A stretch of DNA of 33,171 bases from Minisyncoccota bacterium (GTDB lineage: Bacteria > Patescibacteriota > Minisyncoccia > Phycocordibacterales > UBA5272). The notes below the pieces were generated by a model. It made no database searches. It saw only the letters and a program-made list of their open reading frames with translations, and was not told the DNA's origin. Position numbers and translations under genes: made by a program. Positions 13,825 to 28,399 of this stretch are shown here, in pieces. Position 1 is the first letter of the stretch. Every line of letters begins with the position of its first letter. The stretch lies in contig JAYUCW010000039.1 of NCBI GenBank assembly GCA_043740125.1, positions 1 through 33,171 on the forward strand, in the 5' to 3' direction.

Positions 13825-13825
13825 G

Positions 13826-14223: not shown

Positions 14224-14395
14224 AAAATAAGCGAAGCATTTTTTGAGATGCAGGAAGACATGGCCCGCGCCATGTCTGTCGGGAGTCGAAGCGCGCAGCG
14301 ATATTTTGCTAGTAAGCAAAATCGCGAGCGGCGGTCGGCGAGAAACTTTTGCGACGGCAAAATTTTACTTGCCGAAGACATTCCCGCCTGCATCT
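14207..14395 (+). repeat. 14-bp perfect direct repeat of the tRNA-Cys 3' end bracketing a 161-nt G+C-rich hairpin-dense insert
   Basis: TCCCGCCTGCATCT occurs at 14207-14220 (in the tRNA) and at 14382-14395. The insert contains GACATGGC-CCGC-GCCATGTC and other stems, plus GAGATGCAGG complementary to the tRNA 3' end. Confidence 0.7.
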
Positions 14396-14446
14396 ATATA
14401 AAAATCCCACTTAATGTTAGAATAATCCTCACATAGAAATATGCAT

Positions 14447-14528
14447 GCCCGGGTGATGAAATGGTAGACATAAGACACTTAAAATGTCTGGCGCTATGCG
14501 CGTGCGGGTTCGAGTCCCGCCCTGGGCA
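14447..14528 (+). tRNA. tRNA-Leu (anticodon TAA)
   Basis: Acceptor GCCCGGG/CCTGGGC. Anticodon stem AGACA/TGTCT with loop CTTAAAA. Long variable arm. T-arm GCGGG-TTCGAGT-CCCGC. Confidence 0.9.
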
Positions 14529-14606
14529 CAAATAGGTTTTAAGCTAAATAGTCCATACTAAGCATGGGTTTTTTAGTTCTAACTTTTAATTATTTTAAAT
14601 TAAGTT

Positions 14607-14634
14607 TTGAATTAAATTATTTCTTTGTTAGACT
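14607..14634 (+). promoter_or_regulatory. candidate promoter of AT-rich block 1 (TTGAAT - 16 nt - TGtTAGACT extended -10)
   Basis: TTGAAT at 14607-14612 and TAGACT at 14629-14634 preceded by TGT. The ATG at 14641 is only 6 nt downstream. Same architecture as 22235-22262. Confidence 0.4.
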
Positions 14635-14640
14635 TTAAAT

Positions 14641-15876: not shown

Positions 15877-16429
15877 AATAATATTAATTGGTGGAGGAGA
15901 TTTAACCGAAGAATCACTTTTAAAAATAAAAGAGGAAGCTACTTCAAGTTTTTTAAAATCAAAGAATATTAAGACAATGATTATCCCGTTTGCAAGATAC
16001 GAAGAGGATTGGGAAGCTGTATACACTAAAAATATAACCAAGTATGCCTGTGATGATTACAAGTATACTTTTATGTACCCGAGTAAAGATCATAATGCTT
16101 TTCTGGAACAGTTAAATGATTCAGAATTAGTAATTATCCCCGGAGGCAGTGAATTAAGCCTTATAAAAAATTTACCAGAGCTTTCAAGTGCTAATTTTGA
16201 TAATAAAGTAATAATTGCAACATCTGCTGGAACTAATTTTTTAGCTAGTTCATATTATTCTAACGATAGAGATGAGTTTGCTGTGGGTTCTAATATTTTA
16301 AAGATAAATACAATTTGTCATTTTAAAGATGATGTAATTGATAAGGTAAAAGTATTAACAGAATTAAATGGTCTACCAACTTTTACACTAAGAGAAGGTG
16401 ATTTTATTGTGTTATATGAAAGTAAATAA
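15869..16429 (+). CDS. peptidase S51 (PepE/cyanophycinase-fold) family hydrolase
   Basis: IIPFARYEEDWEAVYTK, LVIIPGGSELSLIKN, IIATSAGTNFLA (nucleophile Ser) and TICHF (His) parallel the E. coli PepE motifs. 8-nt overlap with the upstream gene. Confidence 0.6.
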   Translation: MLKIILIGGGDLTEESLLKIKEEATSSFLKSKNIKTMIIPFARYEEDWEAVYTKNITKYACDDYKYTFMYPSKDHNAFLEQLNDSELVIIPGGSELSLIKNLPELSSANFDNKVIIATSAGTNFLASSYYSNDRDEFAVGSNILKINTICHFKDDVIDKVKVLTELNGLPTFTLREGDFIVLYESK

Positions 16430-16919
16430 TTCCATTTTAAATTTTTTGGAGGTGTATTCTAAAAATTGTCATATTGATGCAATAGATAGTGTGGTTGTGC
16501 TTCTTAAACCTGATTATCCTGAAGATAAAAAAATGTCTTTTTTATCCTATTGTAATGAAAAGTCGTTAAAGATTATATTTAATGATTCTTCTATTTTAAA
16601 TAAAGAAAAAATTTTCGGTATTTATTATGATCTTTTTAGACAAAAAGACGATGATCTGAAGTACGGAATACTATGGAAATTAAAATTAATTGACTATTTA
16701 ACAAGTGGAAAGTCTAATTATTACCTAATTCAAGGTGTTAATGCGCAAGAATTATTAAATAATTATAAAAAAGTGATTAGATTGGAATACGATAAAATCA
16801 CAACACCAAAGGAAGTAATGAGTGAAGATGTTTTTTTTGAAAAAGTTATCAAGAATTTAATCCATGTTACAAATACAGAAGAATTTGTTCCAACTTGTTG
16901 GTTTTTATTTATAAAATAA
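16416..16919 (+). CDS. divergent nucleoside-diphosphate-kinase-like protein
   Basis: VVVLLKPDYP (NDK: FSIIKPNAV), LKIIF...KIFGIY, LIDYLTSGKSNYYLIQG (NDK: LVEFMTSGPIVVSVLEG) and NLIHVTNTEE (NDK: NGTHGSDSVE, His kept). Start set at ATG 16416, overlapping the previous stop by 14 nt. Confidence 0.45.
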   Translation: MKVNNSILNFLEVYSKNCHIDAIDSVVVLLKPDYPEDKKMSFLSYCNEKSLKIIFNDSSILNKEKIFGIYYDLFRQKDDDLKYGILWKLKLIDYLTSGKSNYYLIQGVNAQELLNNYKKVIRLEYDKITTPKEVMSEDVFFEKVIKNLIHVTNTEEFVPTCWFLFIK

Positions 16920-16922
16920 ACT

Positions 16923-18278
16923 ATGGAAAAAAGAGAAAAAATCTCCAAGAGTTTTGAAGATGGTAACGAGGAAGAGTGGGGAAGTATTTTTCGGTTAGGT
17001 GTTTCTCCTGTAAAAGCAAATTTTCGTATTGGTCCACTACGATCCCATCTATATAATTATGTTTATGCTAGTAATGAAAAATTAAAAAATAAAGATTCAA
17101 GGGTTTATTTTCGTGTTGATGATTCAAACCAAGAAAAAGGAGACAGAGAAATGTCTGAAAAACTTTTTTATTTTTTCTCTGAAACTCTCGGGATGGAATT
17201 TGATCAACAAGAAGACAACAGTCAGATGATTTTTCAATCCGAAAGGGTTGATTTATACCGTGAGTATTTAGAAAAATTATTTGATGTTGGTGTGGTTTTC
17301 TTAGATAAAGAATCTGGATTAACTCTTTTTGATATTGAAAAATTTATTGATATATATGGAGAAACAATACAATTTCATGATGTTGTAAGAGGTCAAGTAG
17401 TTTTAAAATTAAAGAAACTTTTAGATAAACAAAAGTTTTTTCCTTTAGTGAGGTCAAATGGTTCAGTGCTCTATCACTTAGCTTCTGTTGCAGACGATCA
17501 TCTTCTCGGTGTTACGCATGTTGTCCGTGGTGCGGATAAGCTATCGGTTGCACAATATCAAGAAATGGTAAGAATTGCACTTGATTTGGAGCCTAAAAAA
17601 TTTATGCACACACCTCTTATGTTGGATGATGAAGGTGGTTTATTAAAAGGCGATGTTTTATATGACTCTTTTATTAAAAAAGGTATTTTGCCTCAAGCGA
17701 TGTTGTCTTATATGATTTCATCAGGTTATGGTGACCCAGATATGATCTATGATTCAATAGAGGCTATTGTGGAAGATTTTGATTACAAAAAAGTAAGACA
17801 AAATAATGGTAAATTTGATTTTAAAAAACTAGTTAGTGTAAATAGAAAAATTTTGTCTAGTGTTAGTGATGAAGATTATTCTATTTCATTAAGACTATAT
17901 TCCGCAAAAATAAATAGAGAAGATATGCATTATGACCTTAATAATGAGATAGAGTTGGCACCTCTTTTTTCAAAACTAAAAATACCATTTGAAAAAACTG
18001 AAGTGTTTTATGATACTTTAGACAGGCCAGATTATTCTGGTATTAAAACCCTTGATATAGAAACTAGGAATGAACTTGATTTGCTTATTGAGGAATTTAA
18101 GCTTGATAGTTTTGATTATAAAGATTATTTTTATTCTTCAAATAAGAATAAGATAAGAGCCTTAAAATTTTTCCTTATTGGTGATTTACAGGTTTCTGGT
18201 GGTTTAGTTGAGATAACAGAATATTTGATTTCTAAAAATTTGATTTCTAAAAGATTAGAAATGTTAAGTGGTTTGTAG
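16923..18278 (+). CDS. glutamyl-tRNA-synthetase-like class I paralogue lacking HIGH and KMSKS signatures
   Basis: [26 protein letters not shown] versus [36 protein letters not shown] versus [36 protein letters not shown] versus [32 protein letters not shown] sits where KLSKR should be. Confidence 0.75.
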   Translation: [451 protein letters not shown]

Positions 18279-18333
18279 TCTGTGAATTTATATTGTCTTA
18301 TTTTGTTTTTTTGTTAATGTAGTATCTAAGAGT

Positions 18334-18519
18334 GTGGGGTAAAATTATTTATTCACCCAATTCTTCAGGTTTGGAATGTATGGAATCACCTCAGACTTCA
18401 TCAGTTCAGTTCTAACCCTTCACAGGGCTGCGATTTTAACAAGTCGGGAGCCCTAAGACTGCATTTTCAATAACCTGATTATAGGTTAAGAAAACGGGAG
18501 CATTGTCTGTTAGGGTTAC
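18334..18519 (-). pseudogene. decayed 3' gene remnant, copy 1 of 3
   Basis: Minus strand encodes VTLTDNAPVFLTYNQVIENAVLGLPTC*, then after a roughly 30-nt insertion and a stop, RVRTELMKSEVIPYIPNLKNWVNK*. Homologous to 19981-20151 and 26958-27074. Confidence 0.6.
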
Positions 18520-18593
18520 ATTGAAAAAAACTCTCAGAAATAAAAGATTTTTTCTTACCCTGTTTTGCCGTTTGAACTGATATACTATTTGAT

Positions 18594-19331
18594 ATGAAAA
18601 AAGTCTTATTCTTCGATATGTACCAGACACTTATCGATACACAAATAGGTGACAAAAAGGAAATTGTAGAAAATGCCTATAAACAAGTTTTTTCTCATTT
18701 CTTGATTGAGAAAGGTATTGAGGTAGATCAAGCTAATAATTTCCAGTCAAATTACAAAAAACTTCAAGATGAATTTTACACAAGCCACGACAAAGAAAAA
18801 GAACATCATGACTTTAAAGTAATACTTAAAAAAACTTTTTCAGACTATTATCAAATTGATATTGATGAGAAAGTTTTGGTAGAACTTATCTGGCAGTATA
18901 GAAAATTAACAAGAGGCGATACTAAACTATATCCTGACGTTAAAGATACTTTAGAGTTGCTCTCCCATGAGTATTCTCTGTATCTTGCTAGTTATACGCA
19001 AGCTTGCTATTCATTATTAGAAATAGAAGAGCTTGGAATTAAGGATTACTTTAAAGGGTTTATTTTTTCTTCTGATATTGGTTATAAAAAAATGAGTGAC
19101 GGATTTTATTTAAAGTGTATAGAAGTTTCAGGGGTGTCTCCAGAAGATTGTGTTATGGTTGGTGATAATAAACTTGAAGATATGTATATGGCAAATAAAA
19201 ATAAAATGTTGACTGTATGGATTAAAAATCCTATTACAGTTAATAATGTGTCTAACGAGCCAATTGCACCCACGAAAGAGTTGGACCTAAAAGATTTTAG
19301 TAAATTGGGTGAGTTACTCTCAACAATCTAA
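18594..19331 (+). CDS. HAD-superfamily hydrolase (subfamily IA-like, D-x-Y type motif I)
   Basis: Motif I FFDMYQTLID, motif II region LASYT, motif IV VMVGDNKLEDM. Confidence 0.7.
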   Translation: MKKVLFFDMYQTLIDTQIGDKKEIVENAYKQVFSHFLIEKGIEVDQANNFQSNYKKLQDEFYTSHDKEKEHHDFKVILKKTFSDYYQIDIDEKVLVELIWQYRKLTRGDTKLYPDVKDTLELLSHEYSLYLASYTQACYSLLEIEELGIKDYFKGFIFSSDIGYKKMSDGFYLKCIEVSGVSPEDCVMVGDNKLEDMYMANKNKMLTVWIKNPITVNNVSNEPIAPTKELDLKDFSKLGELLSTI

Positions 19332-19335
19332 CTAT

Positions 19336-19983
19336 ATGGAAAATTTCTTAAAAAGCAATAATCAAGAAGAGATAAAGCCTCCTAAGACTGAAAGAGATTC
19401 TCAGTTAAACCCTTCAATTGGAATTGAAGAGGCAGTAAAACTACAATCTGTTCTAGATAGGTATACAGATAAGAGAGTTCTTGTCGTCGGTCCTCCGGCT
19501 TCAGGTAAAAGCACCTTGCTTCAACATGTACCAAGTGGAGTTGATATGGATAATGCTCTTTTTGACACAATGCCAAAAAGAGAAAAAGATTTTGCACTTC
19601 AACGAGAGAAACCTTACATGCTTACAGACCCAACCTCTAAAGGTTATCAAAAAACAATTAAGTATGTGCAAAGAGAATTTAATCCAAATGATGAGCAGAA
19701 TGTTACTGATTTTCATTTGTCAGCAGACTTTCTGACCACGTATATAAATGCTCATACAAAAATTGAGGCAGGTAAACCATTCTTTGCAACGAACGTGATT
19801 GATTCTGATGTTATTGTTTATCTGAAACTATCTGATGAAGAATATAAAAAAAGATTAGAATTAAGAAATAAGACAAATAGACCGCAACAAGTAGAGAAAG
19901 CTTTTGCTATAAAAGGTGATATTGAAAAGCATATAGCTATTGCAAGAAATAATGGAGTGATAGTAGAAGAGCTTGAGATGTAG
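19336..19983 (+). CDS. P-loop NTPase, small nucleotide/nucleoside-kinase-like protein
   Basis: Walker A VVGPPASGKSTLL. Its size and the helical lid-like region suggest an AAA_33/adenylate-kinase-like fold. Start set at ATG 19336, just after the HAD stop. Confidence 0.55.
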   Translation: MENFLKSNNQEEIKPPKTERDSQLNPSIGIEEAVKLQSVLDRYTDKRVLVVGPPASGKSTLLQHVPSGVDMDNALFDTMPKREKDFALQREKPYMLTDPTSKGYQKTIKYVQREFNPNDEQNVTDFHLSADFLTTYINAHTKIEAGKPFFATNVIDSDVIVYLKLSDEEYKKRLELRNKTNRPQQVEKAFAIKGDIEKHIAIARNNGVIVEELEM

Positions 19984-20151
19984 TGTCACCCACTGTGGGG
20001 TAAACTAAACTTTCTCAGCCCATGCTCTCAAATTCGGCATATAAGGAATTACTTCACTCTTCATCAATTCAGTTCTAACCCTAGACAGGACTGCATTTTC
20101 AAAAACATGATTACATGTCAAGAAAAGGGAGCCTTGTCTATTAGGGTGCAC
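19981..20151 (-). pseudogene. decayed 3' gene remnant, copy 2 of 3
   Basis: Minus strand encodes CTLIDKAP, then a 1-nt deletion, then ...FLTCNHVFENAVLSRVRTELMKSEVIPYMPNLRAWAEKV*. Shares both end points with copies 1 and 3. Confidence 0.6.
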
Positions 20152-20156
20152 AAATT

Positions 20157-20183
20157 TAAAAATCTGACTAAAGTCAGTTTTTA
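20157..20183 (+). terminator. rho-independent terminator closing block 1
   Basis: AAAAATCTGAC-TAA-AGTCAGTTTTT. Confidence 0.55.
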
Positions 20184-20200
20184 AATGCTACACTATATCC

Positions 20201-20800
20201 ATGAAACTCATTTCAAAATATTTTCCACATTTACTTTTACTTGCGTACATTATTGAATTTATTGTTCTCGCTATTAAACCATACGATCGTGCTGTATGGT
20301 TCACAGAGAACTTCACTATCATTCCGATAGTTGCGATTCTTATTATTTTATATGTTTGTAAAGTGAGATTTTCTAATCTTGCATATGCGCTCATGAGTGT
20401 TCTTGTCTTCATGCATACCTATGGGGGACACTATACCTTTGCTCTCGCACCTTTTGATTGGTTCAATCACATGTTCGGCTTCCAAAGAAATATGTATGAT
20501 AGAGTTGCACACATGACGGTCGGATTTTATGCATACGCAATGATCGAAGCGCTTATTAGATATAAAGTGGTCAACCAAAAGTGGTTCGCATACTTCGCAT
20601 CGTTTATGATTATCCCAGCTATTGCAGCTTTTTATGAAATCTTCGAATGGCGATACGCTGTTAGCTCTGACCCAGCTGCAGGCTTAGCAGTTCTTGGTTC
20701 ACAAGGGGATATTTGGGATGCACAGAAGGATATGCTTATGGATACAATAGGGGGAGTAATAGGTACGGTGATGTACTTCATTTTTCGCCGAGAAAAATGA
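20201..20800 (+). CDS. YjdF-like (DUF2238) inner membrane protein
   Basis: WFTENF..., HTYGGHYTFALAPF and QRNMYDRVAHMTVGFYAYAMIE match the DUF2238 pattern from memory. Confidence 0.6.
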   Translation: MKLISKYFPHLLLLAYIIEFIVLAIKPYDRAVWFTENFTIIPIVAILIILYVCKVRFSNLAYALMSVLVFMHTYGGHYTFALAPFDWFNHMFGFQRNMYDRVAHMTVGFYAYAMIEALIRYKVVNQKWFAYFASFMIIPAIAAFYEIFEWRYAVSSDPAAGLAVLGSQGDIWDAQKDMLMDTIGGVIGTVMYFIFRREK

Positions 20801-20858
20801 TATCGAAATGATCACATTTCGATATAGACTTTATAAGCAAAGTAACGTATACATCTGT

Positions 20859-21542
20859 TTAAAGAAATTCTTCCGGAGCATCTGTTGCGAAAAAATACTT
20901 TTCACCACCAATCTCAAACATGAGTGTCTTAGCATGAAGCATAATACGAGGGGAGTCATGAGTGCTTCCATATGCTTTATCACCAATGATTGGATGTCCG
21001 ATATGAGACGTATGTGCACGGAGTTGATGAGTGCGACCAGTCTTTGGGGTGAGCTCTACCAGTGTGGTATTTTCTTTTTCATTTCGTGTGATAACTTTTA
21101 CCTCTGTGACTGCAGCACGTAATTCTCCTCGAGGGTTCGTAGGATTAACCTGTTGCTTATAGTCTTTTTTATTGCGGCCTAGTGGAGCGTCTATCGTGAA
21201 CTCGGTCTCGGTAATAATTCCTTCAACTAGAGCAAGGTACGTTTTCTTTGTGACGTGATTTCTGAATTGTGATTTTAGTTCATCAAACGTTTCTTTATTT
21301 TTTGAGATCACCATCACGCCAGAAGTATCACGGTCTAATTTGTGAACAATACCTCCAAGATTTATTGTTCGTTTATCTTGTAGGGTTACAGGGTTATCAA
21401 TACCAAAAATATCTGGTACATGTGTCATCAAAAAATCAATAAGTGTTTCTTCAGTGGAATAGTCAAAAGGATGGACCACGAGTCCAGAGGGTTTATTGAT
21501 AACCAAGATATTTGTATCCTCGAATATGACAGAGATAATCAT
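20859..21542 (-). CDS. RluA-family pseudouridine synthase (no S4 domain)
   Basis: VINKPSGLVVHP, HKLDRDTSGVMV (catalytic Asp motif) and GRTHQLRAH. Start trimmed to ATG 21542 because the longer ORF (to 21821) runs through tRNA-Leu(TAG). Confidence 0.85.
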   Translation of the reverse strand: MIISVIFEDTNILVINKPSGLVVHPFDYSTEETLIDFLMTHVPDIFGIDNPVTLQDKRTINLGGIVHKLDRDTSGVMVISKNKETFDELKSQFRNHVTKKTYLALVEGIITETEFTIDAPLGRNKKDYKQQVNPTNPRGELRAAVTEVKVITRNEKENTTLVELTPKTGRTHQLRAHTSHIGHPIIGDKAYGSTHDSPRIMLHAKTLMFEIGGEKYFFATDAPEEFL

Positions 21543-21591
21543 AAGTAGCACTCTACCATATTTTAGTGTATAATCTCTAGACAAATAAGAA

Positions 21592-21676
21592 GCCCAGGTG
21601 GTGAAATTGGTAGACACATCAGTCTTAGGAACTGATGCCGCAAGGCGTGAAGGTTCAAGTCCTTTCCTGGGCACCA
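21592..21676 (+). tRNA. tRNA-Leu (anticodon TAG), CCA encoded
   Basis: Acceptor GCCCAGG/CCTGGGC. Anticodon stem TCAGT/ACTGA with loop CTTAGGA. Long variable arm. T-arm GAAGG-TTCAAGT-CCTTT(C). TATAAT lies about 18 nt upstream. Confidence 0.9.
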
Positions 21677-21748
21677 CGAAAAAATTCCTTAGAAATAAGG
21701 GATTTTTTCTTACACTGTATTTTACGTTGGAACTGATATACTTTAACC

Positions 21749-22189
21749 ATGTTTCGTAAAGGAGTCTCTGCCTTAATAATAAACAAGAATCAAGAGTTTT
21801 TGCTTGTAAACTTACAGTCATTTAAAGTTCATTTTTTCGCTGTCCCTGGAGGTGGTTTAGAAGATGATGAATCACTTGAAGAAGCTGTATACCGTGAAGT
21901 ACAAGAAGAGGTTGGGATACATAAAGAATCCCTTAAATGTATTGGAGCAAGTAAACAACCTGTACAGTTTAAGTTAAATCTTAATCGTGATGGGAAAGCA
22001 TATGAAGGTTCAGAGAGATATTTTTTTGGCTTTAGATTTATAGGAAATGATGATGAAATAAAATTACAAGAGTCCGAAGTACGTTCATATAAATGGGTGT
22101 CATTCAATGATTTAAAAGGCTATCTCCTTTTTGATAATCAGCTAGAAGAAACATCAGAGAAAATTATAGAACTATTTCCCTTTTTGTAA
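21749..22189 (+). CDS. NUDIX hydrolase
   Basis: Nudix box GGGLEDDESLEEAVYREVQEEVGI. Confidence 0.85.
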   Translation: MFRKGVSALIINKNQEFLLVNLQSFKVHFFAVPGGGLEDDESLEEAVYREVQEEVGIHKESLKCIGASKQPVQFKLNLNRDGKAYEGSERYFFGFRFIGNDDEIKLQESEVRSYKWVSFNDLKGYLLFDNQLEETSEKIIELFPFL

Positions 22190-22234
22190 ACAGAAGTAAG
22201 TAACCAGTTATTGATTAATCTGATTACAAGAGTT

Positions 22235-22262
22235 TTGAAATCTATCTTTTTCTTGTTAGAAT
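22235..22262 (+). promoter_or_regulatory. candidate promoter of the six-gene sub-operon (TTGAAA - 16 nt - TGtTAGAAT extended -10)
   Basis: TTGAAA at 22235-22240 and TAGAAT at 22257-22262 preceded by TGT. ATG at 22269. Confidence 0.4.
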
Positions 22263-22268
22263 GGCACT

Positions 22269-22955
22269 ATGAAAGAAACTCCTGAAAGTAGACAAATATC
22301 AAAAGTTGATTCTGATATCAATAGTGTTGAGAATAATTTTTCTAAAATAAAAAATTCGACTCATTGTCCATTTGCAGATAAGTCAAATATACAATATTTT
22401 GAATCATGGAATAGATATAAAACTTTTGATGAAAATTTAGTAGCATTAGCAGAAGAACTAGTAGTATTTACTCATAAATGTGAAGAAGAAAAGATGGATG
22501 GTTTTATCTTTGAAGTTTCTGGCGACAATTTACCTATGAATTTGCAGGATTTGTCATCTTTGTTAAAACATGTACTTTTAAAATTAAATGAGCTAGACCC
22601 AAAAAAAGATGACTGTATGTCTAAAGATATTTCTGCGCCTGGTTGGCAGTTCGTATTTAATGGACAAAGAATTTTTATGATTACATTCGGATCTTTTTAT
22701 AGTGAAGATAGTCCAAGATACTCTATGAATAAAGATTCAACTTTTATTTTCATGCAACCCGAATCATCTTTCCATTTACATATCATAAATCCAGCAAAAT
22801 CACCCCAGACACTAAAATTAAAAGAAAAAATCAGAAGTGCTTTCGTAGAAGGAGGGAAACCTTATAATACTGAAATTGTCGATAGTCCATCTGACGCTAT
22901 TAAATACATTAAACCGCTTCATAAAAATGACTCACATATAGAGTGGTGGAAATAA
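22269..22955 (+). CDS. YqcI/YcgG-family protein (family of heme-dependent N-oxygenases such as GntA)
   Basis: STHCPFA near the N-terminus and GWQFVFNGQRIFMITFGSFYSEDSPRYSMNKDSTFIFMQPESSF match the YcgG C-terminal pattern W-x-F-x-F-x-G ... F-Q-P as I recall it. Confidence 0.55.
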   Translation: MKETPESRQISKVDSDINSVENNFSKIKNSTHCPFADKSNIQYFESWNRYKTFDENLVALAEELVVFTHKCEEEKMDGFIFEVSGDNLPMNLQDLSSLLKHVLLKLNELDPKKDDCMSKDISAPGWQFVFNGQRIFMITFGSFYSEDSPRYSMNKDSTFIFMQPESSFHLHIINPAKSPQTLKLKEKIRSAFVEGGKPYNTEIVDSPSDAIKYIKPLHKNDSHIEWWK

Positions 22956-22960
22956 ATTAT

Positions 22961-23920
22961 ATGCAAAATAACAAGATAGGAATAATAACAACTTCTGCTC
23001 CGATTAAAAAACTTGATATAGATATGGTGAGGTCAGGGTATACCTACCTATTAAAAAATGGTTTTGAAGTTTTTGAACACCCAAGCTGTCAATTGGAAAA
23101 TGGATATATGGCAGGGAATGTTGACGATAGAGTAGAAGCAATTCATGATTTGGTTAAAGATAAGACAGTTGATATTATAATGGCTTTTTGGGGCGGAGAC
23201 AATACGAATCAGCTTCTAGATAAGTTAGACTATGACTTAATAAAAAATAATCCAAAAATATTTATTGGCTACTCGGACACAAGTAGTTTATTAAATGCAA
23301 TTCATGTAAAAACTGGCCTAGTTACATACCTTGGGCCTGCCGTTATTACTTTTTGTAAACCTAACATTTTCCCGGAGAGTATTTTCTATTTTAAAAAAGT
23401 TGTGAGCGAACGAGGTCTAAAACAAACATTGGTACAACCAACACTTTACGCTAAAGACGCATACTACAAAAGAAGCGATAATCAAAGAATTATAGAGAGT
23501 AACGATGGTTGGAAGGTATTGAGACATGGAGTTGTTTCTGATAAAAAAATAGTTGCAATATGTTTGTCGATGTTACAATCATTACTCTCTACACCGTATG
23601 AACCAGATCTTAAAGGAAAAGTTCTTTTTTGTGAAATAGATGAATCCATAAAAATAGAAGCATTCGATAGGATGGTTGTACAGCTTAAACAAACGGGTAT
23701 TTTGGATACTATTGCTGCTTTTGTATTTAGTAAGGCGACAGATGAATCAAATATTAATGAAATAGATATAGTAAAAGTTTTGGAAGAGAACATAAAGAAT
23801 GATATTCCAATTATTTATAATTTTGACTGTGGTCACACGGATCCTGTTATCACTATTCCAGTCGGTGGTTATTGTGATATTAATACGAAGGACGGTGTTT
23901 CTATTTCTGTGAGTTATTAA
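22961..23920 (+). CDS. S66-family serine peptidase (LD-carboxypeptidase / MccF-like)
   Basis: IGIITTSAPI, FWGGDNTNQLL, FIGYSDTSSLL (nucleophile Ser), CEIDE and DCGHTDPVITIPVG (His) follow the LdcA/MccF layout. Confidence 0.75.
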   Translation: MQNNKIGIITTSAPIKKLDIDMVRSGYTYLLKNGFEVFEHPSCQLENGYMAGNVDDRVEAIHDLVKDKTVDIIMAFWGGDNTNQLLDKLDYDLIKNNPKIFIGYSDTSSLLNAIHVKTGLVTYLGPAVITFCKPNIFPESIFYFKKVVSERGLKQTLVQPTLYAKDAYYKRSDNQRIIESNDGWKVLRHGVVSDKKIVAICLSMLQSLLSTPYEPDLKGKVLFCEIDESIKIEAFDRMVVQLKQTGILDTIAAFVFSKATDESNINEIDIVKVLEENIKNDIPIIYNFDCGHTDPVITIPVGGYCDINTKDGVSISVSY

Positions 23921-23933
23921 CCTTATTGTAGGT

Positions 23934-25067
23934 ATGATGTTTAATGAAAACTTTGAAACAAAACCCTTTGAAAAGGCTTCCAACATCGAATCTTTAGATA
24001 GGGTAAAAAGTTCATTCCTAAATCAACTAAAATATGACGATTTTTCATTACAAGTTAACAATGGTTTAGGTGTACATGATGATGAGACATTACTATTTGC
24101 AAACTCTACAATGGCTACACATAAGAAGGAAATTATATCAGACTCATTACCTGAAAATGGTTTAGCAATTTCTCAGAAATGTTTACGTATGAGAAGTTTG
24201 GCACACTTTCTTGATAGAAGTTCTGATTTTGGTTTTAACTCATACTTTACAATGGTTGGTATGTTGTTTGGTGGAGAATCATCTAGAAATATTTTAAATC
24301 AAACTCTTACTTTTCTAACAAGTCAGGGTTTTGACATTAAAAGATTATTTATAAAAACTGGTTCAGACTGTAAGAATGTTAATAAATCAATTATTGGTTT
24401 TAGTGAGAAAAAAACTATTCAAGACTCCGAAAGCGAATCATATTATAAATGGGCTTATGGTATTGAAGGGGTTGTAGGAGAAGGTCTCACGTTTACATAC
24501 TTTTTTCCAGATGGTTCCTATAAAGACTTAGGTAACATTATTTGTGTAGTTGATGAAGCTTCAGGAAAAATTAAGGCCTGGGAATCTGGTTTTGGGGTTG
24601 AGACATTGATTGCTGTGAGAGACGGTAAGGATTTATTTGAAACTCACCCCATTTGGGATGTTCTCCAATATGAAAGAAATCCGGATTTAAAAAAAGTTGC
24701 AGATTCTGTTGTTTCTGTTATTGAAATAATAAGAGAAGGAGTGCTTATTGGTTCGAAGAAACAGGGGTATATTTTAAAAAAATTTCTTAATGTTATATAT
24801 TATATAAACAAAGACTTACATTTGGATCTAAGAAAGGTTGTAACTGAATACTGTGAGCATATGAAATATGAGAATGGAGAGACAATAGCAGAAACAATTA
24901 TTTCATACTTAGAACAAATTGATTCTTCTAAACAGAAGAACTTAGAAGCTTTTAAGAAATTCTTGAAGAGTAATGGAAACTTAACTGAGCGCCAGAAAAT
25001 AGATATAGCAAAAAGTTCCTTTTCATTGGAGCTTTCTGAAATTAAGGATTTATTACAATTAATATAA
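23934..25067 (+). CDS. alanyl-tRNA-synthetase catalytic-core-like class II paralogue (377 aa; no editing or C-Ala domains)
   Basis: DDETLLFANSTMATHKKEI versus NDPTLLFTNAGMNQFKDVF. SQKCLRMRS versus SQRCVRAGG. YFTMVGMLFGG versus FFEMLGNFSFG. ESGFGVETLIAV versus DTGMGLERIAAV. KKQGYILKKFLN versus ENRGYVLRRIIR. Confidence 0.7.
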   Translation: MMFNENFETKPFEKASNIESLDRVKSSFLNQLKYDDFSLQVNNGLGVHDDETLLFANSTMATHKKEIISDSLPENGLAISQKCLRMRSLAHFLDRSSDFGFNSYFTMVGMLFGGESSRNILNQTLTFLTSQGFDIKRLFIKTGSDCKNVNKSIIGFSEKKTIQDSESESYYKWAYGIEGVVGEGLTFTYFFPDGSYKDLGNIICVVDEASGKIKAWESGFGVETLIAVRDGKDLFETHPIWDVLQYERNPDLKKVADSVVSVIEIIREGVLIGSKKQGYILKKFLNVIYYINKDLHLDLRKVVTEYCEHMKYENGETIAETIISYLEQIDSSKQKNLEAFKKFLKSNGNLTERQKIDIAKSSFSLELSEIKDLLQLI

Positions 25068-25094
25068 CTCATAATATGGTATTATTCTAGTAAT

Positions 25095-25901
25095 ATGAAA
25101 GAAGAAATTTTAAATCTCAATTACACTGACTTTGTCGGCTTCATTAATCAATGGAATGTCCTCCCTGGTGCACATGTAACACTTTCAAAATGGGTAACTT
25201 TTAGTGGAGTTAACGCCGATTCACATATACTAGAACTTGCATGCACTTCTGGCTTTTCATCTCGAGAAATTGCAATTATGACTGGGTGTGCTGGTGTTGG
25301 TATTGATATTTCTGCACCATCAGTTGAAGCCGCTATTTTGAATAAGAAGGTATATGCACCAGGTATTAAAATTACTTATGAAGTTGCAGACGGTCATATT
25401 TATGAACCAGAAGAAAAATTTTCACACGTAGTAGTTGGCGCAGCTCTAAAATTTTTTGGTAACCAAAAAGAAGTAACTGAGAGAATAGTTTCAAAATATC
25501 TTAAAGATGGCGGTTTTTTGTTAGCTTCACCTTTTTTTGCTGTGAGGACAGTTCCTCAGGAAGTTATTGATAGGGCTCGTGAGGTTTTTGGTATTACAAT
25601 AACAACAGAATCATATAAGGAGGCAATGAAGGCATACTCAGATTTTGAAATCATATATGAAGATAAGTGTGATTTGATTGAGGAGACAGAAGAGGAGCTG
25701 AGTGTTTACTGTACAGCAACAGTAGCTAGAGCTGCAGATTTCCACGGAATAGTGGATAATGAAGTAAAGCAAGTTATGTACGCAAGACTACTAGAGATAA
25801 GAAGAATGACTAATGTTCTTAGAGGATATCAAAACTACACAGTACTGGTATTGAGGTATAGAAAAAGTGTGTACCCAAATAGGTATGTGGAATTATTTTA
25901 A
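25095..25901 (+). CDS. class I SAM-dependent methyltransferase
   Basis: Motif I ILELACTSGFSS, followed by GIDIS and a downstream acidic/aromatic pattern typical of the Rossmann methyltransferase fold. Confidence 0.7.
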   Translation: MKEEILNLNYTDFVGFINQWNVLPGAHVTLSKWVTFSGVNADSHILELACTSGFSSREIAIMTGCAGVGIDISAPSVEAAILNKKVYAPGIKITYEVADGHIYEPEEKFSHVVVGAALKFFGNQKEVTERIVSKYLKDGGFLLASPFFAVRTVPQEVIDRAREVFGITITTESYKEAMKAYSDFEIIYEDKCDLIEETEEELSVYCTATVARAADFHGIVDNEVKQVMYARLLEIRRMTNVLRGYQNYTVLVLRYRKSVYPNRYVELF

Positions 25902-25906
25902 AAGTA

Positions 25907-26407
25907 ATGATTTTAACAGGCAAAGAAATTACACGAGAAGTTTCTAGCGGGAATATTTCTATTACCCCTTTTTTTCTTGATCAGATTAATCCTAATAGTT
26001 ACAATTATAGACTTGGGGAGACACTTAAAGTTTTCTCACAATTTGATGGAGTTAAGTCACTTTTTGAAGAAGTAAGGATTCCCAAAGAAGGGTATGTTCT
26101 TGAGCCAAATAAAATGTATTTAAGTACTACCAGCGAAGAGATAGGTAGTAGCGTATATGCAATGTCTCTTATCGGTAGAAGTTCGATGGGGCGGCTTGGG
26201 CTTTTTCTCCAGGTTTCAGCGGATCTCGGACATACAACTTCATGCCATAATTGGACGCTTGAATTAGTTGCTTCACATTCTATAAGGGTTTATCCTTGGA
26301 TGGTAATCGGGCAGGTTTCTTTTTGGGAGAATAAAGGAGAGCATAATGACTACGATGGTTTTTATGGAAATAAAAATAATGTCCAAGAATCAATTATTTT
26401 TATATAG
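25907..26407 (+). CDS. dCTP deaminase (Dcd/dUTPase-fold) family protein, copy 1
   Basis: MILTGKEI...ISITPF...NPNSYNYRLG, GRSSMGRLGLFLQVSA and WTLELV (catalytic Glu kept) parallel the E. coli Dcd motifs. Confidence 0.75.
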   Translation: MILTGKEITREVSSGNISITPFFLDQINPNSYNYRLGETLKVFSQFDGVKSLFEEVRIPKEGYVLEPNKMYLSTTSEEIGSSVYAMSLIGRSSMGRLGLFLQVSADLGHTTSCHNWTLELVASHSIRVYPWMVIGQVSFWENKGEHNDYDGFYGNKNNVQESIIFI

Positions 26408-26414
26408 TAAAATT

Positions 26415-26933
26415 ATGATTTTAACAGGAAATGAAATTAAATCAGAGGTAGGTTTGGGTAAGATAAAGATTGAGCCTTTTGATATAAATCATTGTACAAC
26501 TAATTCGTACGATTTATGTCTTGGTAATGTTCTTATTCAATATATCGAGGATGTCTTAGACCCTAAAAAAGAAAATAAATATCGAGAATTGGTTATACCT
26601 AAAGAGGGTATGATTTTGCCAAAAAATTCTTTCTTTCTTGGTTCTTCTAAAGAGAAAATTGGAAGTAATTTTTATGTTCCGATGATACATGCTAAGTCAG
26701 GAGTGGCAAGACTCGGATTATTTGTGCATGTCACAGCAGACCTTGTTGACATTGGTTACTATGGAGAAATAACTTTCCAGTTGTATGCTACCTTGCCTGT
26801 AAAAATTTATCCCGGAATGAAATTAGGACAAGTTTCTTTTTGGGTGCCAAAGGGTGAGATTAATCTATATAATGGTAAATATCAGAATAGTACTGGTCCA
26901 CAAGTTTCTAAAACCTATCAAGATTTTAGTTAA
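26415..26933 (+). CDS. Dcd-fold paralogue, copy 2, with altered catalytic positions
   Basis: MILTGNEI...IKIEPF...TTNSYDLCLG, then AKSGVARLGLFVHVTA (GRSS to AKSG) and ITFQLY (Glu to Gln). Start set at ATG 26415, 8 nt after copy 1. Confidence 0.7.
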   Translation: MILTGNEIKSEVGLGKIKIEPFDINHCTTNSYDLCLGNVLIQYIEDVLDPKKENKYRELVIPKEGMILPKNSFFLGSSKEKIGSNFYVPMIHAKSGVARLGLFVHVTADLVDIGYYGEITFQLYATLPVKIYPGMKLGQVSFWVPKGEINLYNGKYQNSTGPQVSKTYQDFS

Positions 26934-26957
26934 TTTTTATTTAGTAGTATATTATAT

Positions 26958-27074
26958 AGTGTCACAGACTGTGGGGTAAATCACGCTTTTTCTACCCAAG
27001 CTCGCAGATTCGGTATGTAAGGAATCACCTCACTTTTCATCAATTCAGTTCTAACATTGTCTATTAGGGTGCAC
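26958..27074 (-). pseudogene. decayed 3' gene remnant, copy 3 of 3 (internal in-frame deletion)
   Basis: Minus strand encodes CTLIDN-VRTELMKSEVIPYIPNLRAWVEKA* in one frame. About 75 nt is missing relative to copy 2, with the breakpoint right after GTTCTAAC. Confidence 0.6.
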
Positions 27075-27079
27075 AACAT

Positions 27080-27112
27080 AAAAAATGAGATGTCGAAAGA
27101 CATCCATTTTTT
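27080..27112 (+). terminator. rho-independent terminator closing block 2
   Basis: GAGATGTC-GAAA-GACATC(C) followed by ATTTTTT. Confidence 0.55.
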
Positions 27113-27262: not shown

Positions 27263-27649
27263 TCAGCGTTTGAGCCAAAACATGTACTTGCCTATATAGA
27301 CAGAGTAACTCATTCCGACCATCTTCATGGTTGGGGCTTGAGGAAAGTAGGTTTTCCAGAATTCCTCAAGTGTTCGGGTAGGAGAGGAGTTATCGCACGT
27401 ATCGAAGAAGTTACCTTGCTTACCGTTGTGACAAACAAGCATATAGCCATCAACACGATACTTGATGTATTTATCATCGATCACAAACATCAGGTCCGCT
27501 TGAGTCGGTTGAGGCAATGCTTGCTGTCCGCCAGCGTTGTTGTTATTGCTTGCCATTATCACAACAGCAGCGCTCGTTGCTGACGCTGTCGAAGCAACGA
27601 GCAACAAGGAGATCAGGAAAAAGACACGAGTGAAGATTTTTTTGAGCAT
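27263..27649 (-). CDS. small secreted protein, unknown function
   Basis: Signal peptide MLKKIFTRVFFLISLLLVASTASATSA, an N-rich linker and two Cys residues. No family recognised. Confidence 0.5.
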   Translation of the reverse strand: MLKKIFTRVFFLISLLLVASTASATSAAVVIMASNNNNAGGQQALPQPTQADLMFVIDDKYIKYRVDGYMLVCHNGKQGNFFDTCDNSSPTRTLEEFWKTYFPQAPTMKMVGMSYSVYIGKYMFWLKR

Positions 27650-27790
27650 GTTGCCCTCCTAGGCAGTAAGTTGAAAGATCAGACTACACTCATTTAATAT
27701 ATTATACTTTATGTATTCTGTCAAGTAATTTTCACGTCTTAATTTATTCATTCTTTTAACTTCAACTGACATGATACTATAAAATTAAAT

Positions 27791-28399
27791 ATGACCCCAC
27801 AAGATATAACTATAAAAACATATCGAGATAATTTTGAGCTGTATAAAGAAAAGACACCGAATGTTGTCTCGGGTGAGTTTGTTGTATGGATGAATGTTTT
27901 TGTAAGTGCGCTCACGCCTGATGGAAAAATATTTGAGCTTGGTTCAGCAGAAGGAAGAGATGCGCGATATCTACGAGATAAGGGATTTGTTGTGACATGT
28001 ACTGATGTTATCCCGCAGGCTCTACAGTCTCTTGAGGCGGATGGATTCACTACAGACCCATATGATCTTCGTGATACACCAAAGGAAGAATGGAAAAATT
28101 CTTTTGATGGTATTCTTGCAAAAGCTGTGTACCTCCATGTGCCACAGGAAGTTTTTGAAAAGTCTCTCACTCAAATGAACACACTTTTAAAAGTTGGAGG
28201 TATTTTTTGTTTAACATTTAAGTTGGGTGTTGGTGAAGAAATAGAAACAAAAAAGCTAGATGGAGAAAGATACTTTAAATATTACACACAAGAAGAGTTA
28301 GTGGCTATTGTAAAAAAATATCAGCATTACGGGCTTGTGAGCACTGCAACAACAGAAGATAAAAAGTGGATTCAGATTCTTTTGAGAAAGAGACAATAG
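27791..28399 (+). CDS. class I SAM-dependent methyltransferase
   Basis: Motif I IFELGSAEGRDARYL, acidic loop VVTCTD and post-I region ILAKAVYLHV. Confidence 0.7.
   Translation: MTPQDITIKTYRDNFELYKEKTPNVVSGEFVVWMNVFVSALTPDGKIFELGSAEGRDARYLRDKGFVVTCTDVIPQALQSLEADGFTTDPYDLRDTPKEEWKNSFDGILAKAVYLHVPQEVFEKSLTQMNTLLKVGGIFCLTFKLGVGEEIETKKLDGERYFKYYTQEELVAIVKKYQHYGLVSTATTEDKKWIQILLRKRQ

What the first reader, a model, noticed from the sequence alone, without database searches (positions are those of the whole stretch)
23934..25067. Stand-alone AlaRS catalytic-core homologue with substituted amino-acid-binding residues
The 377-aa protein aligns to the first 400 or so residues of AlaRS (aminoacylation domain plus the start of the tRNA-recognition helices). 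It lacks the editing and C-Ala domains. The motif 2 arginine context is kept (SQKCLRMRS). The region corresponding to V-D-T-G-M-G-L-E-R reads W-E-S-G-F-G-V-E-T. So the Asp that I recall contacts the alanine alpha-amino group, and the motif 3 Arg, both appear replaced. Together with the GluRS-like gene, this gives one degenerate aaRS paralogue of each class in a single island. That is unlikely by chance.
Basis: partly seen in the sequence, partly recalled or inferred. Interest (0 to 1): 0.72.

Follow-up and report, generated by a model that had tools for sequence, protein, structure and literature searches.

The report
tRNA-synthetase-like enzyme in an antibiotic-type gene cassette
A shortened, rewired copy of the alanine tRNA-charging enzyme sits in a conserved five-gene cassette with microcin C-type tailoring and self-protection enzymes, and it most likely uses charged tRNA to build a toxic amino-acid–nucleotide mimic rather than to charge tRNA.

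Summary
ORF 23934-25067 (+, 377 aa) is a real, conserved, stand-alone homologue of the AlaRS aminoacylation and tRNA-recognition domains. The motif 2 Arg is kept (R85). Alignment software places WESGFGVET on VDTGMGLER, so the Ala-binding Asp is Glu (E217) and the motif 3 Arg is Thr (T224).

These changes are family-wide: E in 140 and non-Arg in 152 of 155 representatives. The family has at least 192 clusters of 320-420 aa proteins.

The closest characterised enzyme is AcmF of ascamycin biosynthesis. It is a 370-aa truncated AlaRS-like protein with the same Asp-to-Glu change. It does not activate alanine but transfers it from Ala-tRNA to a nucleoside sulfamate.

Here the gene lies in a tight operon with an MccF-like S66 hydrolase, an MccD-like SAM-dependent transferase and two dCTP-deaminase-like proteins. 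This five-gene core recurs in five lineages down to 31% identity. A sixth lineage swaps S66 for a LeuRS.

Best reading (0.55): an aminoacyl-tRNA-dependent transferase makes an aminoacyl-nucleotide antimetabolite, and S66 provides self-protection. The acceptor molecule is unknown.

The GluRS-like gene belongs to a separate, independently conserved module, so "one island" is not supported. The parallel theme is real. This is a new variant of a known kind.

The parts
23934..25067 (+). Truncated AlaRS-like protein, 377 aa, with aminoacylation and tRNA-recognition domains only. Proposed aminoacyl-tRNA-dependent aminoacyl transferase of the AcmF type.
   Evidence: Family conservation.
24171..24197 (+). 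Motif 2 region SQKCLRMRS (residues 80-88). Q81 and R85 are invariant in 155 of 155 family representatives. The AlaRS loop GGKHNDLENVG that follows is replaced.
24579..24605 (+). Motif 3 region WESGFGVET (residues 216-224). E217 replaces the alanine alpha-amino-binding Asp. T224 replaces the motif 3 Arg.
22943..23920 (+). S66 peptidase of the MccF type. Gene callers also place the start at 22961. Proposed self-protection hydrolase for the aminoacyl-nucleotide.
   Evidence: B. anthracis MccF 143 bits, E. coli MccF 118 bits, LdcA about 32 bits. Pfam S66 and S66C. Adjacent to the AlaRS-like gene in 5 lineages.
25095..25901 (+). MccD-like class I SAM-dependent transferase. MccD is the 3-amino-3-carboxypropyl transferase of microcin C maturation.
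   Evidence: PDB 5fcd MccD, E 1e-27, 100.7 bits, residues 2-254 against 11-265 of 267. The next hit has E 1e-3. Role of MccD: PMC10491745.
25907..26407 (+). dCTP-deaminase-like protein 1 (DCD1). It keeps the catalytic Glu (TLEL) and lacks the C-terminal lid.
26415..26933 (+). dCTP-deaminase-like protein 2 (DCD2). The ORF is open from 26346. The catalytic Glu is replaced by Gln (TFQL) and the C-terminal lid is kept.
22269..22955 (+). YqcI/YcgG-family protein and first gene of the operon. The family comprises haem-dependent guanidine N-hydroxylases. It is an accessory gene, present here and in L008/L009 only.
   Evidence: Pfam 34.6 bits.. PMC12866846. A yqcI/ycgG gene also sits in the Yersinia mcc operon (PMC4010828).
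22235..22262 (+). Promoter-like site (TTGAAA, 16 nt, TAGAAT, with an extended -10 TG) just upstream of the operon.
   Evidence: This is a consensus match only.
26954..27104 (+). Third copy of an intergenic repeat, ending in a terminator-like hairpin (27089-27104). It marks the 3' end of the operon.
21749..22189 (+). NUDIX hydrolase, a possible accessory gene of the cassette. NUDIX genes also flank the cassette in L034.
16923..18278 (+). GluRS-like paralogue. It belongs to a separate module spanning 14641-18278: AdoMet synthase, S51 peptidase, an unknown 173-aa protein and the GluRS-like gene.

Best explanation
The gene encodes an AcmF-type enzyme. It keeps the AlaRS active-site cleft and the tRNA-recognition domain but has lost the ability to make aminoacyl-adenylate. 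It binds a nucleoside or nucleotide analogue where AMP would sit. It accepts an aminoacyl-tRNA charged by a normal synthetase and transfers the aminoacyl group to an amine of the analogue. E217 holds the alpha-amino group and R85 holds the anionic linker. The product is a non-hydrolysable mimic of an aminoacyl-adenylate, that is, a synthetase inhibitor.

The rest of the operon fits this role:
- The two dCTP-deaminase/dUTPase-fold proteins handle or make the pyrimidine (deoxy)nucleotide part.
- The MccD homologue alkylates it with a SAM-derived group, as in microcin C.
- The MccF homologue cleaves the aminoacyl-nucleotide bond of any product released inside the producer.

Shown here: the fold, the residue changes, their conservation, the operon structure, the conserved gene association and the identities of the neighbours.

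Inferred: the tRNA dependence, the direction of transfer, the acceptor molecule, the amino acid and the antibiotic role.
For: 1. The architecture and residue changes match AcmF. AcmF is a truncated AlaRS-like protein of 370 aa (PMC4257720). It has only the aminoacylation and tRNA-recognition domains, lacks most of the key residues for ATP binding and alanine activation, carries D232E with Glu232 essential, and uses Ala-tRNA to acylate a sulfamate NH2 (PMC12945691). Here the protein is 377 aa with the same two domains. D to E and motif 3 R to T are confirmed, and the motif 2 loop is replaced.
2. The changes are conserved. R85 occurs in 155 of 155 representatives, E217 in 140 (Asp in 1) and Arg at position 224 in only 3. 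This points to selection for a new activity.
3. The cassette AlaRS-like + S66 + MccD-like + DCD1 + DCD2 is conserved in five lineages at 100, 55, 50, 44 and 31% identity. A sixth lineage (31%) lacks S66. Genes are spaced from -13 to +27 nt.
4. Two neighbours belong to microcin C families: S66 is MccF-like rather than LdcA-like, and the methyltransferase-fold protein is MccD-like. MccF cleaves the aminoacyl-nucleotide amide (PMC9239234).
5. Related clades pair the AlaRS-like gene with a full-length synthetase, as AcmF pairs with AcmD. A LeuRS is present in all 8 clade-B loci compared, and also in L033 and L032. P0136 is a fusion to a class IIb synthetase.
6. In two lineages, ATP-grasp ligases resembling BacD and DdaF sit next to the AlaRS-like gene. 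BacD and DdaF make Trojan-horse dipeptides.
7. The operon has low GC (0.327 against 0.40 in the flanks), and L032 lies beside an integrase. Both fit an accessory, mobile trait.
Against:
- AcmF's second hallmark change, Asn to Gln, is absent. N201 is kept here and in 136 of 155 relatives.
- The window cassette has no full-length partner synthetase, no exporter and no sulfamate-pathway genes.
- No enzyme that obviously supplies an amine acceptor has been identified.
- S66 is co-transcribed with the enzyme that would make its substrate. That looks futile unless the final product is protected by further modification.
- The host appears to be a small-genome CPR bacterium, where a salvage or housekeeping role cannot be excluded.
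- The amino-acid pocket residues look AlaRS-like and small, which sits awkwardly with the LeuRS partners seen in related clades.
Confidence: 0.55

Rival explanations
1. It is still an ATP-dependent, adenylate-forming ligase. It would activate an amino acid and pass it to a non-tRNA acceptor such as a nucleotide, small molecule or carrier. Precedents among class II synthetase paralogues include AsnA, EpmA/PoxA and the amino acid:carrier-protein ligases (named from general knowledge).
For: The motif 2 Arg, Q81, W173, N201 and the glycine-rich motif 3 backbone are conserved.
Against: The motif 3 Arg is absent in 152 of 155 relatives. The motif 2 loop GGKHNDLENVG and the FFEMLGN segment are replaced. 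The one characterised enzyme with this architecture and the D-to-E change does not adenylate (PMC12945691). The tRNA-recognition domain is retained, which such a ligase would not need.
Confidence: 0.15
2. It is a non-catalytic binding protein. It would act as a decoy or sequestering immunity factor that binds an aminoacyl-adenylate-mimic antibiotic, or tRNA, alongside the MccF-like hydrolase. On this reading the cassette is a resistance island rather than a biosynthetic one.
For: It has lost ATP-binding residues. It is always next to an MccF-type detoxifying hydrolase, and an S51/MccG-family peptidase lies nearby (PMC9239234). The window cassette has no exporter.
Against: Polar active-site residues are strictly conserved: Q81, R85, D198, N201, E217 and E223. 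The cassette is tightly linked to a biosynthetic-type MccD homologue and the DCD pair. ATP-grasp amino-acid ligases occur in two lineages. The AcmF equivalent of E217 is catalytically essential.
Confidence: 0.1
3. It acts on tRNA itself. Examples would be a deacylase or trans-editing factor for mischarged tRNA, or a partner that presents tRNA to the MccD-like and DCD-like enzymes for base modification.
For: The tRNA-recognition domain is retained, including the conserved KKQGYILKKF segment. MccD-type chemistry (aminocarboxypropyl transfer) and cytidine deamination both have counterparts in tRNA modification (general knowledge).
Against: Known AlaRS-derived editing factors come from the editing domain, which is absent here (general knowledge). 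The MccF-type hydrolase and the amino-acid ligases have no role in tRNA modification. The DCD fold acts on free dNTPs.
Confidence: 0.07
4. It is the N-terminal half of a split but otherwise normal alaS, or a decaying fragment.
For: Its length corresponds to the AlaRS catalytic fragment.
Against: It scores 39 bits against the 457-bit cut-off of the alaS equivalog model. It is 15-19% identical to AlaRS structures. Catalytic Asp and Arg are replaced family-wide. Full-length intact orthologues exist at 44-90% identity in the same operon context. None of the 6 lineages has an adjacent gene for the missing domains.
Confidence: 0.02
5. It works in cell-wall metabolism. S66 would act as an LD-carboxypeptidase, and the AlaRS-like protein would supply or transfer alanine for peptidoglycan peptides.
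For: Pfam names S66 "LD-carboxypeptidase". NCBIfam gives a weak muramoyltetrapeptide carboxypeptidase hit of 82.7 bits against a cut-off of 378.
Against: S66 is far closer to MccF (143 and 118 bits) than to LdcA (about 32 bits). The MccD-like and DCD-like partners have no cell-wall role. No mur or fem genes are present in the cassette.
Confidence: 0.04

Closest known systems
AcmF, the AlaRS-like aminoacyl transferase of ascamycin biosynthesis in Streptomyces (ACS Catal 2024 14:3533; review PMC12945691)
   Same: It is a stand-alone protein of about 370 aa with only the AlaRS aminoacylation and tRNA-recognition domains. The motif 2 Arg is kept. The alpha-amino-binding Asp is replaced by Glu. ATP and alanine-activation residues are lost. 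The Asp-plus-Asn G3:U70 reader is not evident. It is encoded in a cluster for an aminoacyl-adenylate mimic together with a hydrolase that removes the aminoacyl group.
   Different: N201 is kept, whereas AcmF has Asn to Gln. The window cassette has no AcmD-like partner synthetase and no sulfate-activation, sulfatase or sulfotransferase genes. The partners are instead MccD-like, MccF-like and two DCD-like proteins. The host is a low-GC, probably CPR, bacterium rather than an actinomycete. The sequence relationship to AcmF could not be tested.
Canonical alanyl-tRNA synthetase (AlaRS; PDB 3hxu, 1riq, 9jdn)
   Same: The fold of both N-terminal domains matches (TM 0.67-0.71). The motif 1 region DDETLLFANSTM, motif 2 QxCxR and the GxGxE backbone of motif 3 are shared.
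   Different: There are no editing or C-Ala domains. Asp is replaced by Glu, the motif 3 Arg by Thr, and the motif 2 loop is replaced. It scores 39 bits against the 457-bit cut-off of the alaS model.
Microcin C-type (mcc) peptidyl-nucleotide gene clusters (PMC9239234, PMC4010828)
   Same: The cassette has homologues of MccD (tailoring) and MccF (self-immunity). A YqcI/YcgG gene is present, as in the Yersinia mcc operon. An S51/MccG-family peptidase lies nearby. The cytidine-type nucleotide theme is shared.
   Different: There is no MccB (ThiF-like nucleotidyltransferase), no MccA precursor peptide, no MccC exporter and no MccE. The amino-acid-to-nucleotide link would be made by a tRNA-dependent transferase instead of by the ribosome plus MccB.
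SbzA, the IleRS-like aminoacyl-tRNA-dependent transferase of SB-203208 biosynthesis (PMC12945691)
   Same: SbzA is the class I counterpart of the same idea. It is the relevant comparison for the neighbouring GluRS-like gene.
   Different: SbzA keeps HYGH and AMSKA signatures. The GluRS-like protein here has Arg in place of the HIGH His, and its function is untested.

Membership tests
Canonical AlaRS (alaS) | Passes the curated alaS equivalog model | tested here: not met
   TIGR00344 scores 39.3 bits against a cut-off of 457.
Canonical AlaRS (alaS) | Asp that binds the alanine alpha-amino group and the motif 3 Arg | tested here: not met
   ESGFG-ET aligns to DTGMGLER. Glu occurs in 140 of 155 relatives and Arg in 3 of 155.
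Canonical AlaRS (alaS) | Editing and C-Ala domains, or a separately encoded remainder next door | tested here: not met
   The protein is 377 aa with no tRNA_SAD hit. No such gene is present in any of the six cassette lineages.
AcmF-type AlaRS-like transferases | Only the aminoacylation and tRNA-recognition domains, about 370 aa | tested here: met
   AcmF is 370 aa.
AcmF-type AlaRS-like transferases | Asp to Glu at the alpha-amino-binding position (AcmF E232, essential) | tested here: met
   E217.
AcmF-type AlaRS-like transferases | Asn to Gln in the active site (AcmF Q219) | tested here: not met
   N201 is kept. Gln occurs in only 14 of 155 relatives. The correspondence of this position rests on MAFFT and the motif pattern.
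AcmF-type AlaRS-like transferases | Loss of residues needed for ATP binding and adenylate formation | tested here: met
   The motif 3 Arg is Thr. The motif 2 loop and the FFEMLGN segment are replaced.
AcmF-type AlaRS-like transferases | Partner full-length synthetase in the cluster (AcmD) | tested here: not met
   None is present in the window cassette. Related clades do have one: LeuRS in L007, L012, L032 and L033, and a fusion in P0136.
AcmF-type AlaRS-like transferases | Aminoacyl-tRNA-dependent, ATP-independent transfer to a nucleoside amine | not testable with these tools
   This needs biochemistry.
AcmF-type AlaRS-like transferases | Sequence clustering with AcmF itself | not tested
   The AcmF sequence was not obtainable. 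The position scan and the supplement look-up both failed.
mcc (microcin C-like) biosynthetic cluster | MccB ThiF-like nucleotidyltransferase and MccA precursor ending in Asn | tested here: not met
   No ThiF-family hit in any ORF scanned with Pfam across the window. Three ORFs of 120 aa or more that overlap other ORFs (5454-5828, 27263-27649 and 27748-28170, all minus strand) were not scanned. Small ORFs were not searched for MccA.
mcc (microcin C-like) biosynthetic cluster | Dedicated exporter | tested here: not met
   No transporter is present in 22269-26933.
mcc (microcin C-like) biosynthetic cluster | MccD and MccF accessory enzymes | tested here: met
   5fcd MccD, E 1e-27 over the full length. 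MccF 143 and 118 bits.

The most novel reading that the evidence does not exclude
The cassette encodes a ribosome-independent, tRNA-dependent route to a microcin C-like N-aminoacyl (deoxy)pyrimidine-nucleotide antibiotic in candidate-phyla-radiation bacteria.
- The split deaminase/pyrophosphatase pair (DCD1 with the catalytic Glu, DCD2 with Gln plus the lid) supplies the nucleotide. It may even form the P-N bond by capturing the released ammonia at the alpha-phosphate.
- The AlaRS-like enzyme acylates that amine from aminoacyl-tRNA.
- The MccD homologue then alkylates the phosphate.

If so, the roughly 190 or more clusters of truncated AlaRS-like proteins would be a general family of "reverse synthetases" that make diverse synthetase inhibitors.
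Probability: 0.2. Interest if true: 0.85.

Novelty: new variant of a known kind. Interest (0 to 1): 0.7.

Why it matters
Only one truncated AlaRS-like transferase, AcmF, came up as characterised in the literature searched here, and it was reported in 2024. This finding places a distant relative in a completely different and conserved gene cassette. The exhaustive search shows a large uncharacterised family around it: 192 clusters at E below 1e-30, almost all with the same Asp-to-Glu and Arg-loss signature.

If the model is right, three things follow:
- There would be a second, tRNA-dependent way to make microcin C-like aminoacyl-nucleotide inhibitors of tRNA synthetases.
- It would predict a new pyrimidine-based chemotype.
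- It would give small-genome CPR bacteria a chemical weapon or a tool for manipulating their hosts.

It would also supply a clear residue signature for mining such enzymes, and candidate biocatalysts for making aminoacyl-nucleoside drugs.

Tried and rejected
- Megablast of 14000-27000 against plasmids found no match.
- A viral-contig scan for the family found nothing.
- PADLOC found no known defence system. There were only weak generic hits for the methyltransferase and the kinase.
- Rfam at permissive thresholds found only five tRNAs. There is no T-box or riboswitch near either module.
- I tested whether the two tRNA-Leu genes beside the islands are dedicated donors, given the LeuRS partners in related clades. 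I rejected this because none of 16 related loci carries a tRNA-Leu. They are more likely insertion sites.
- I tried to recognise AcmF among the 155 representatives from its published residue numbers (R93, W100, F104, E216, Q219, E232, E374). No sequence fitted. The review has no held supplement.
As a result the metagenome scan reached only close relatives and clade B.
- Pairwise and hhalign alignments of the middle of the catalytic domain were inconsistent. I do not rely on them for W173 and N201.
- Folding the thrice-repeated intergenic element gave a weak consensus structure with only 3 compensatory pairs from 3 sequences. This is inconclusive.
- The split-alaS and cell-wall readings were considered and rejected (see rivals).
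Full report
**Observation**

Gene callers in four independent assemblies call the same protein.

It matches Pfam tRNA-synt_2c above the curated cut-off (37.8 against 30.3 bits, E 1.1e-9). It falls far below NCBI's alaS equivalog threshold (39 against 457 bits).

phmmer against PDB sequences finds only AlaRS catalytic fragments. A profile of the protein's own family raises this to E 1.5e-14.

An AlphaFold2 model built on the family alignment is confident (pLDDT 84.8, pTM 0.81). Foldseek matches it to AlaRS catalytic fragments 9jdn, 3hxu, 1riq and 5knn, with E 6e-15 to 6e-14 and TM 0.67-0.71 over 409-433 aligned columns. That covers the aminoacylation domain and the helical tRNA-recognition domain and nothing more.

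**Residue claims**

- SQKCLRMRS (residues 80-88) aligns with SQRCVRAGG of E. coli AlaRS, so the motif 2 Arg is R85.
- HMMER aligns ESGFGLET of the family profile with DTGMGLER of three AlaRS structures.
- hhalign aligns ESGFGVET with DSGFGLER of an AlaRS-related protein that still has the canonical residues.
- The Asp-to-Glu (E217) and motif 3 Arg-to-Thr (T224) changes are therefore confirmed by software.
- After R85, the AlaRS loop GGKHNDLENVG and the HHTFFEMLGN segment are replaced by MRSLAHFLDRSS and FNSYFTMVGM.
- In the middle of the domain, automatic pairwise alignments disagree. MAFFT puts W173 on the DNFW tryptophan. The pattern G..G.G.TFTYF...DLGN, together with three predicted consecutive strands, suggests that N201 corresponds to the EIWN asparagine. 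I treat this correspondence as probable only.

**The family**

The word-indexed search found only seven relatives among 5.8 billion proteins. The exhaustive HMM search found 192 cluster representatives at E below 1e-30 and 649 at E below 1e-10. Nearly all of the listed best 150 are 320-420 aa.

In an alignment of 155 of them:
- Q81 and R85 are invariant.
- Position 217 is Glu in 140 and Asp in 1.
- Position 224 is Thr in 109 and Arg in 3.
- Position 201 is Asn in 136 and Gln in 14.

The substitutions are the signature of a sizeable family of truncated AlaRS-like proteins. They are not decay in one gene. NCBI names one member "alanine--tRNA ligase-related protein".

**Context**

The gene lies in a tight operon:
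- YqcI/YcgG (22269-22955)
- S66 peptidase (22943-23920)
- AlaRS-like (23934-25067)
- a methyltransferase-fold protein (25095-25901)
- two dCTP-deaminase-fold proteins (25907-26407 and 26415-26933)

Gene spacing runs from -13 to +27 nt. A promoter-like site lies at 22235-22262 and a terminator-like hairpin at 27089-27104. The operon's GC is 0.327 against 0.40 in the flanks.

The flanks are chromosomal. They encode ParB, RelA/SpoT, topoisomerase I, DprA, IF-2 and RbfA.

The core AlaRS-like + S66 + MT-fold + DCD + DCD recurs in five lineages with AlaRS-like identities of 100, 55, 50, 44 and 31% (L001-4, L008/9, L005, L006, L034). A sixth lineage (L032, 31%) keeps the MT-fold and DCD genes at 46-62% identity. 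It replaces S66 with a LeuRS and an alpha/beta-hydrolase, and it lies beside an integrase. This association is far too persistent to be chance.

**Identity of the neighbours**

- S66 is an MccF. It scores 143 bits against B. anthracis MccF and 118 against E. coli MccF, but about 32 against P. aeruginosa LdcA. The Ser, His and Glu of the MccF catalytic motifs are aligned.
- The MT-fold protein matches MccD (PDB 5fcd) at E 1e-27 over its whole length. The next PDB hit is at E 1e-3. MccD is the SAM-dependent 3-amino-3-carboxypropyl transferase that decorates the phosphoramidate of microcin C (PMC10491745).
- DCD1 keeps the deaminase Glu (TLEL) but lacks the C-terminal lid. DCD2 has Gln there (TFQL) and keeps the lid. 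They look like the two halves of a hetero-oligomer.
- YqcI/YcgG proteins are haem-dependent guanidine N-hydroxylases (PMC12866846). One is also encoded in the cytidine-type mcc operon of Yersinia pseudotuberculosis (PMC4010828). Here the gene is accessory and occurs in two lineages only.
- In two lineages, ATP-grasp ligases resembling BacD and DdaF sit next to the AlaRS-like gene.
- No MccB, MccA, MccE or exporter is present.
- No PADLOC defence system matches, and there is no cis-regulatory RNA.

**Precedent**

AcmF of ascamycin biosynthesis is annotated as a 370-aa "alanyl-tRNA synthetase" (PMC4257720). It has since been shown to be a truncated AlaRS-like enzyme with only the aminoacylation and tRNA-recognition domains. 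It lacks most of the key residues for ATP binding and alanine activation and carries N219Q and D232E.

AcmF does not charge tRNA. It takes Ala-tRNA made by the co-encoded AlaRS AcmD and transfers alanine to the sulfamate NH2 of dealanylascamycin. Glu232 is essential, and Arg93 (motif 2) holds the sulfamate (PMC12945691).

The window protein shares the architecture, the length, the retained motif 2 Arg, the Asp-to-Glu change and the loss of adenylation residues. It does not share Asn to Gln.

The AcmF-AcmD logic is visible in its relatives:
- Clade B (26-29% identity) sits in a conserved cluster in all eight loci compared. The cluster has a LeuRS, two sulfatases, an ABC importer, a nucleoside phosphorylase and NIF3 (a phosphoribosyltransferase replaces the phosphorylase in L033), sometimes with S66. 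The acm cluster also needs sulfatases.
- One representative is fused to a class IIb synthetase and another to a GNAT domain.

**Mechanism proposed**

- Shown: the fold, the residue changes, the conservation, the operon, the conserved cassette and the neighbour identities.
- Inferred: the enzyme binds a nucleoside or nucleotide analogue in the AMP site and an aminoacyl-tRNA through its recognition domain. It transfers the aminoacyl group to an amine, giving a stable aminoacyl-adenylate mimic. The MccD homologue alkylates this product, and the MccF homologue protects the producer.
- Speculative: the acceptor is a pyrimidine (deoxy)nucleotide made by the DCD pair, possibly a 5'-phosphoramidate.
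- The amino acid is unknown. The pocket residues look AlaRS-like.

**The GluRS-like gene**

It is a real paralogue:
- It aligns to GluRS residues 32-337.
- The HIGH His is replaced by Arg here. In 50 relatives it is Lys or Arg, whereas canonical GluRS has His in 30 of 30.
- It scores 138 bits against a cut-off of 290.
- It has no anticodon-domain hit.

It belongs to its own module of AdoMet synthase, S51 peptidase, an unknown protein and the GluRS-like gene. That module is conserved in Parcubacteria-type MAGs without the AlaRS-like cassette. In L031 a canonical GluRS lies nearby.

S51 peptidases (MccG) also detoxify processed microcin C (PMC9239234). So there are two separate modules with the same theme, not one island.

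**Host**

Named relatives of both aaRS-like proteins come from Candidatus Parcubacteria, Falkowbacteria, Uhrbacteria and Beckwithbacteria. IF-2 (505 aa as called) and RelA/SpoT (494 aa) appear short, but I did not compare them with typical lengths. A CPR (Patescibacteria) host is likely but not proven.

**Limits**

There is no biochemistry. The acceptor and the amino acid are unknown. Context could be read for only a handful of the 192 clusters.

Noticed in passing
window 14641-18278; L029, L030, L031: A second conserved module comprises an archaeal-type AdoMet synthase, an S51 peptidase (the MccG family that detoxifies processed microcin C), an unknown protein of about 170 aa and a GluRS-like paralogue with the HIGH His replaced by Lys or Arg. 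About 50 clusters exist, mostly in CPR MAGs. In L031 the module sits near a canonical GluRS and a SAM_HAT enzyme. It may be a class I counterpart of the AlaRS-like cassette.
   Followed up: partly
window 18317-18497, 19978-20163, 26954-27086: An intergenic element of about 130-180 nt occurs three times in the same orientation at 77-82% identity. Each copy directly follows the last gene of a cassette: GluRS-like, HAD-kinase and DCD2. Two copies are followed by terminator-like hairpins. No further copies occur in the window or in related loci from other organisms. Its structure is inconclusive.
   Followed up: partly
window 13825-14529 and 21592-21676; also 18523-18586 vs 21678-21742: tRNA-Lys, tRNA-Cys and tRNA-Leu(taa) lie just upstream of the first low-GC module. 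tRNA-Leu(tag) lies just upstream of the second. The 65 nt after tRNA-Leu(tag) are repeated (82-87%) upstream of the HAD gene. This looks like tRNA-targeted insertion with att-like remnants. A dedicated-donor role for tRNA-Leu was checked and not supported.
   Followed up: partly
L007, L012, L013, L017, L020, L021, L024, L025, L033: A sister clade of AlaRS-like proteins (26-29% identity) sits in a conserved nine-gene cluster. It has a LeuRS of about 770 aa, an ABC ATPase, a permease, two sulfatases, a binding protein, the AlaRS-like gene, a nucleoside phosphorylase (a phosphoribosyltransferase in L033) and NIF3. S66 is present in three loci. This resembles the ascamycin logic (sulfatases plus a resistant synthetase) and suggests a sulfamoyl-nucleoside product linked to LeuRS. 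One locus is from Candidatus Beckwithbacteria.
   Followed up: partly
P0136 (879 aa) and P0134 (520 aa): There are natural fusions of the truncated AlaRS-like domain. One is fused to an OB anticodon-binding domain plus a class IIb (Asp/Lys/Asn-type) synthetase core. Another is fused to an N-terminal GNAT acetyltransferase. Both fit a "charged-tRNA supplier" or "self-immunity" partner.
   Followed up: partly
window 25907-26407 and 26415-26933: The two DCD-fold proteins are complementary. DCD1 keeps the deaminase Glu but lacks the C-terminal lid. DCD2 has Gln at that position and keeps the lid (KYQ..GP..S..YQ.F). The pair is conserved at 61-67% identity across lineages in which the AlaRS-like protein has dropped to 31-55% identity.
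   Followed up: partly
window 18594-19983: A two-gene cassette bounded by copies of the repeat. It encodes a HAD hydrolase most similar to non-canonical pyrimidine 5'-nucleotidases (YjjG, PynA) and a P-loop kinase with weak deoxynucleoside-kinase similarity. It is another pyrimidine-nucleotide function next to the modules.
   Followed up: no
L032 12000-20800: The LeuRS-containing version of the cassette lies next to a tyrosine integrase, DUF932, and HepT/MNT and HigB toxin-antitoxin genes. It is therefore on a mobile element.
   Followed up: no
window 20859-21821 (-) vs 21592-21676 (+): The longest ORF of the pseudouridine synthase gene (320 aa) overlaps the tRNA-Leu(tag) gene on the other strand. 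Gene callers use a shorter 272-aa form that still reaches the tRNA. The true start is probably further downstream.
   Followed up: no
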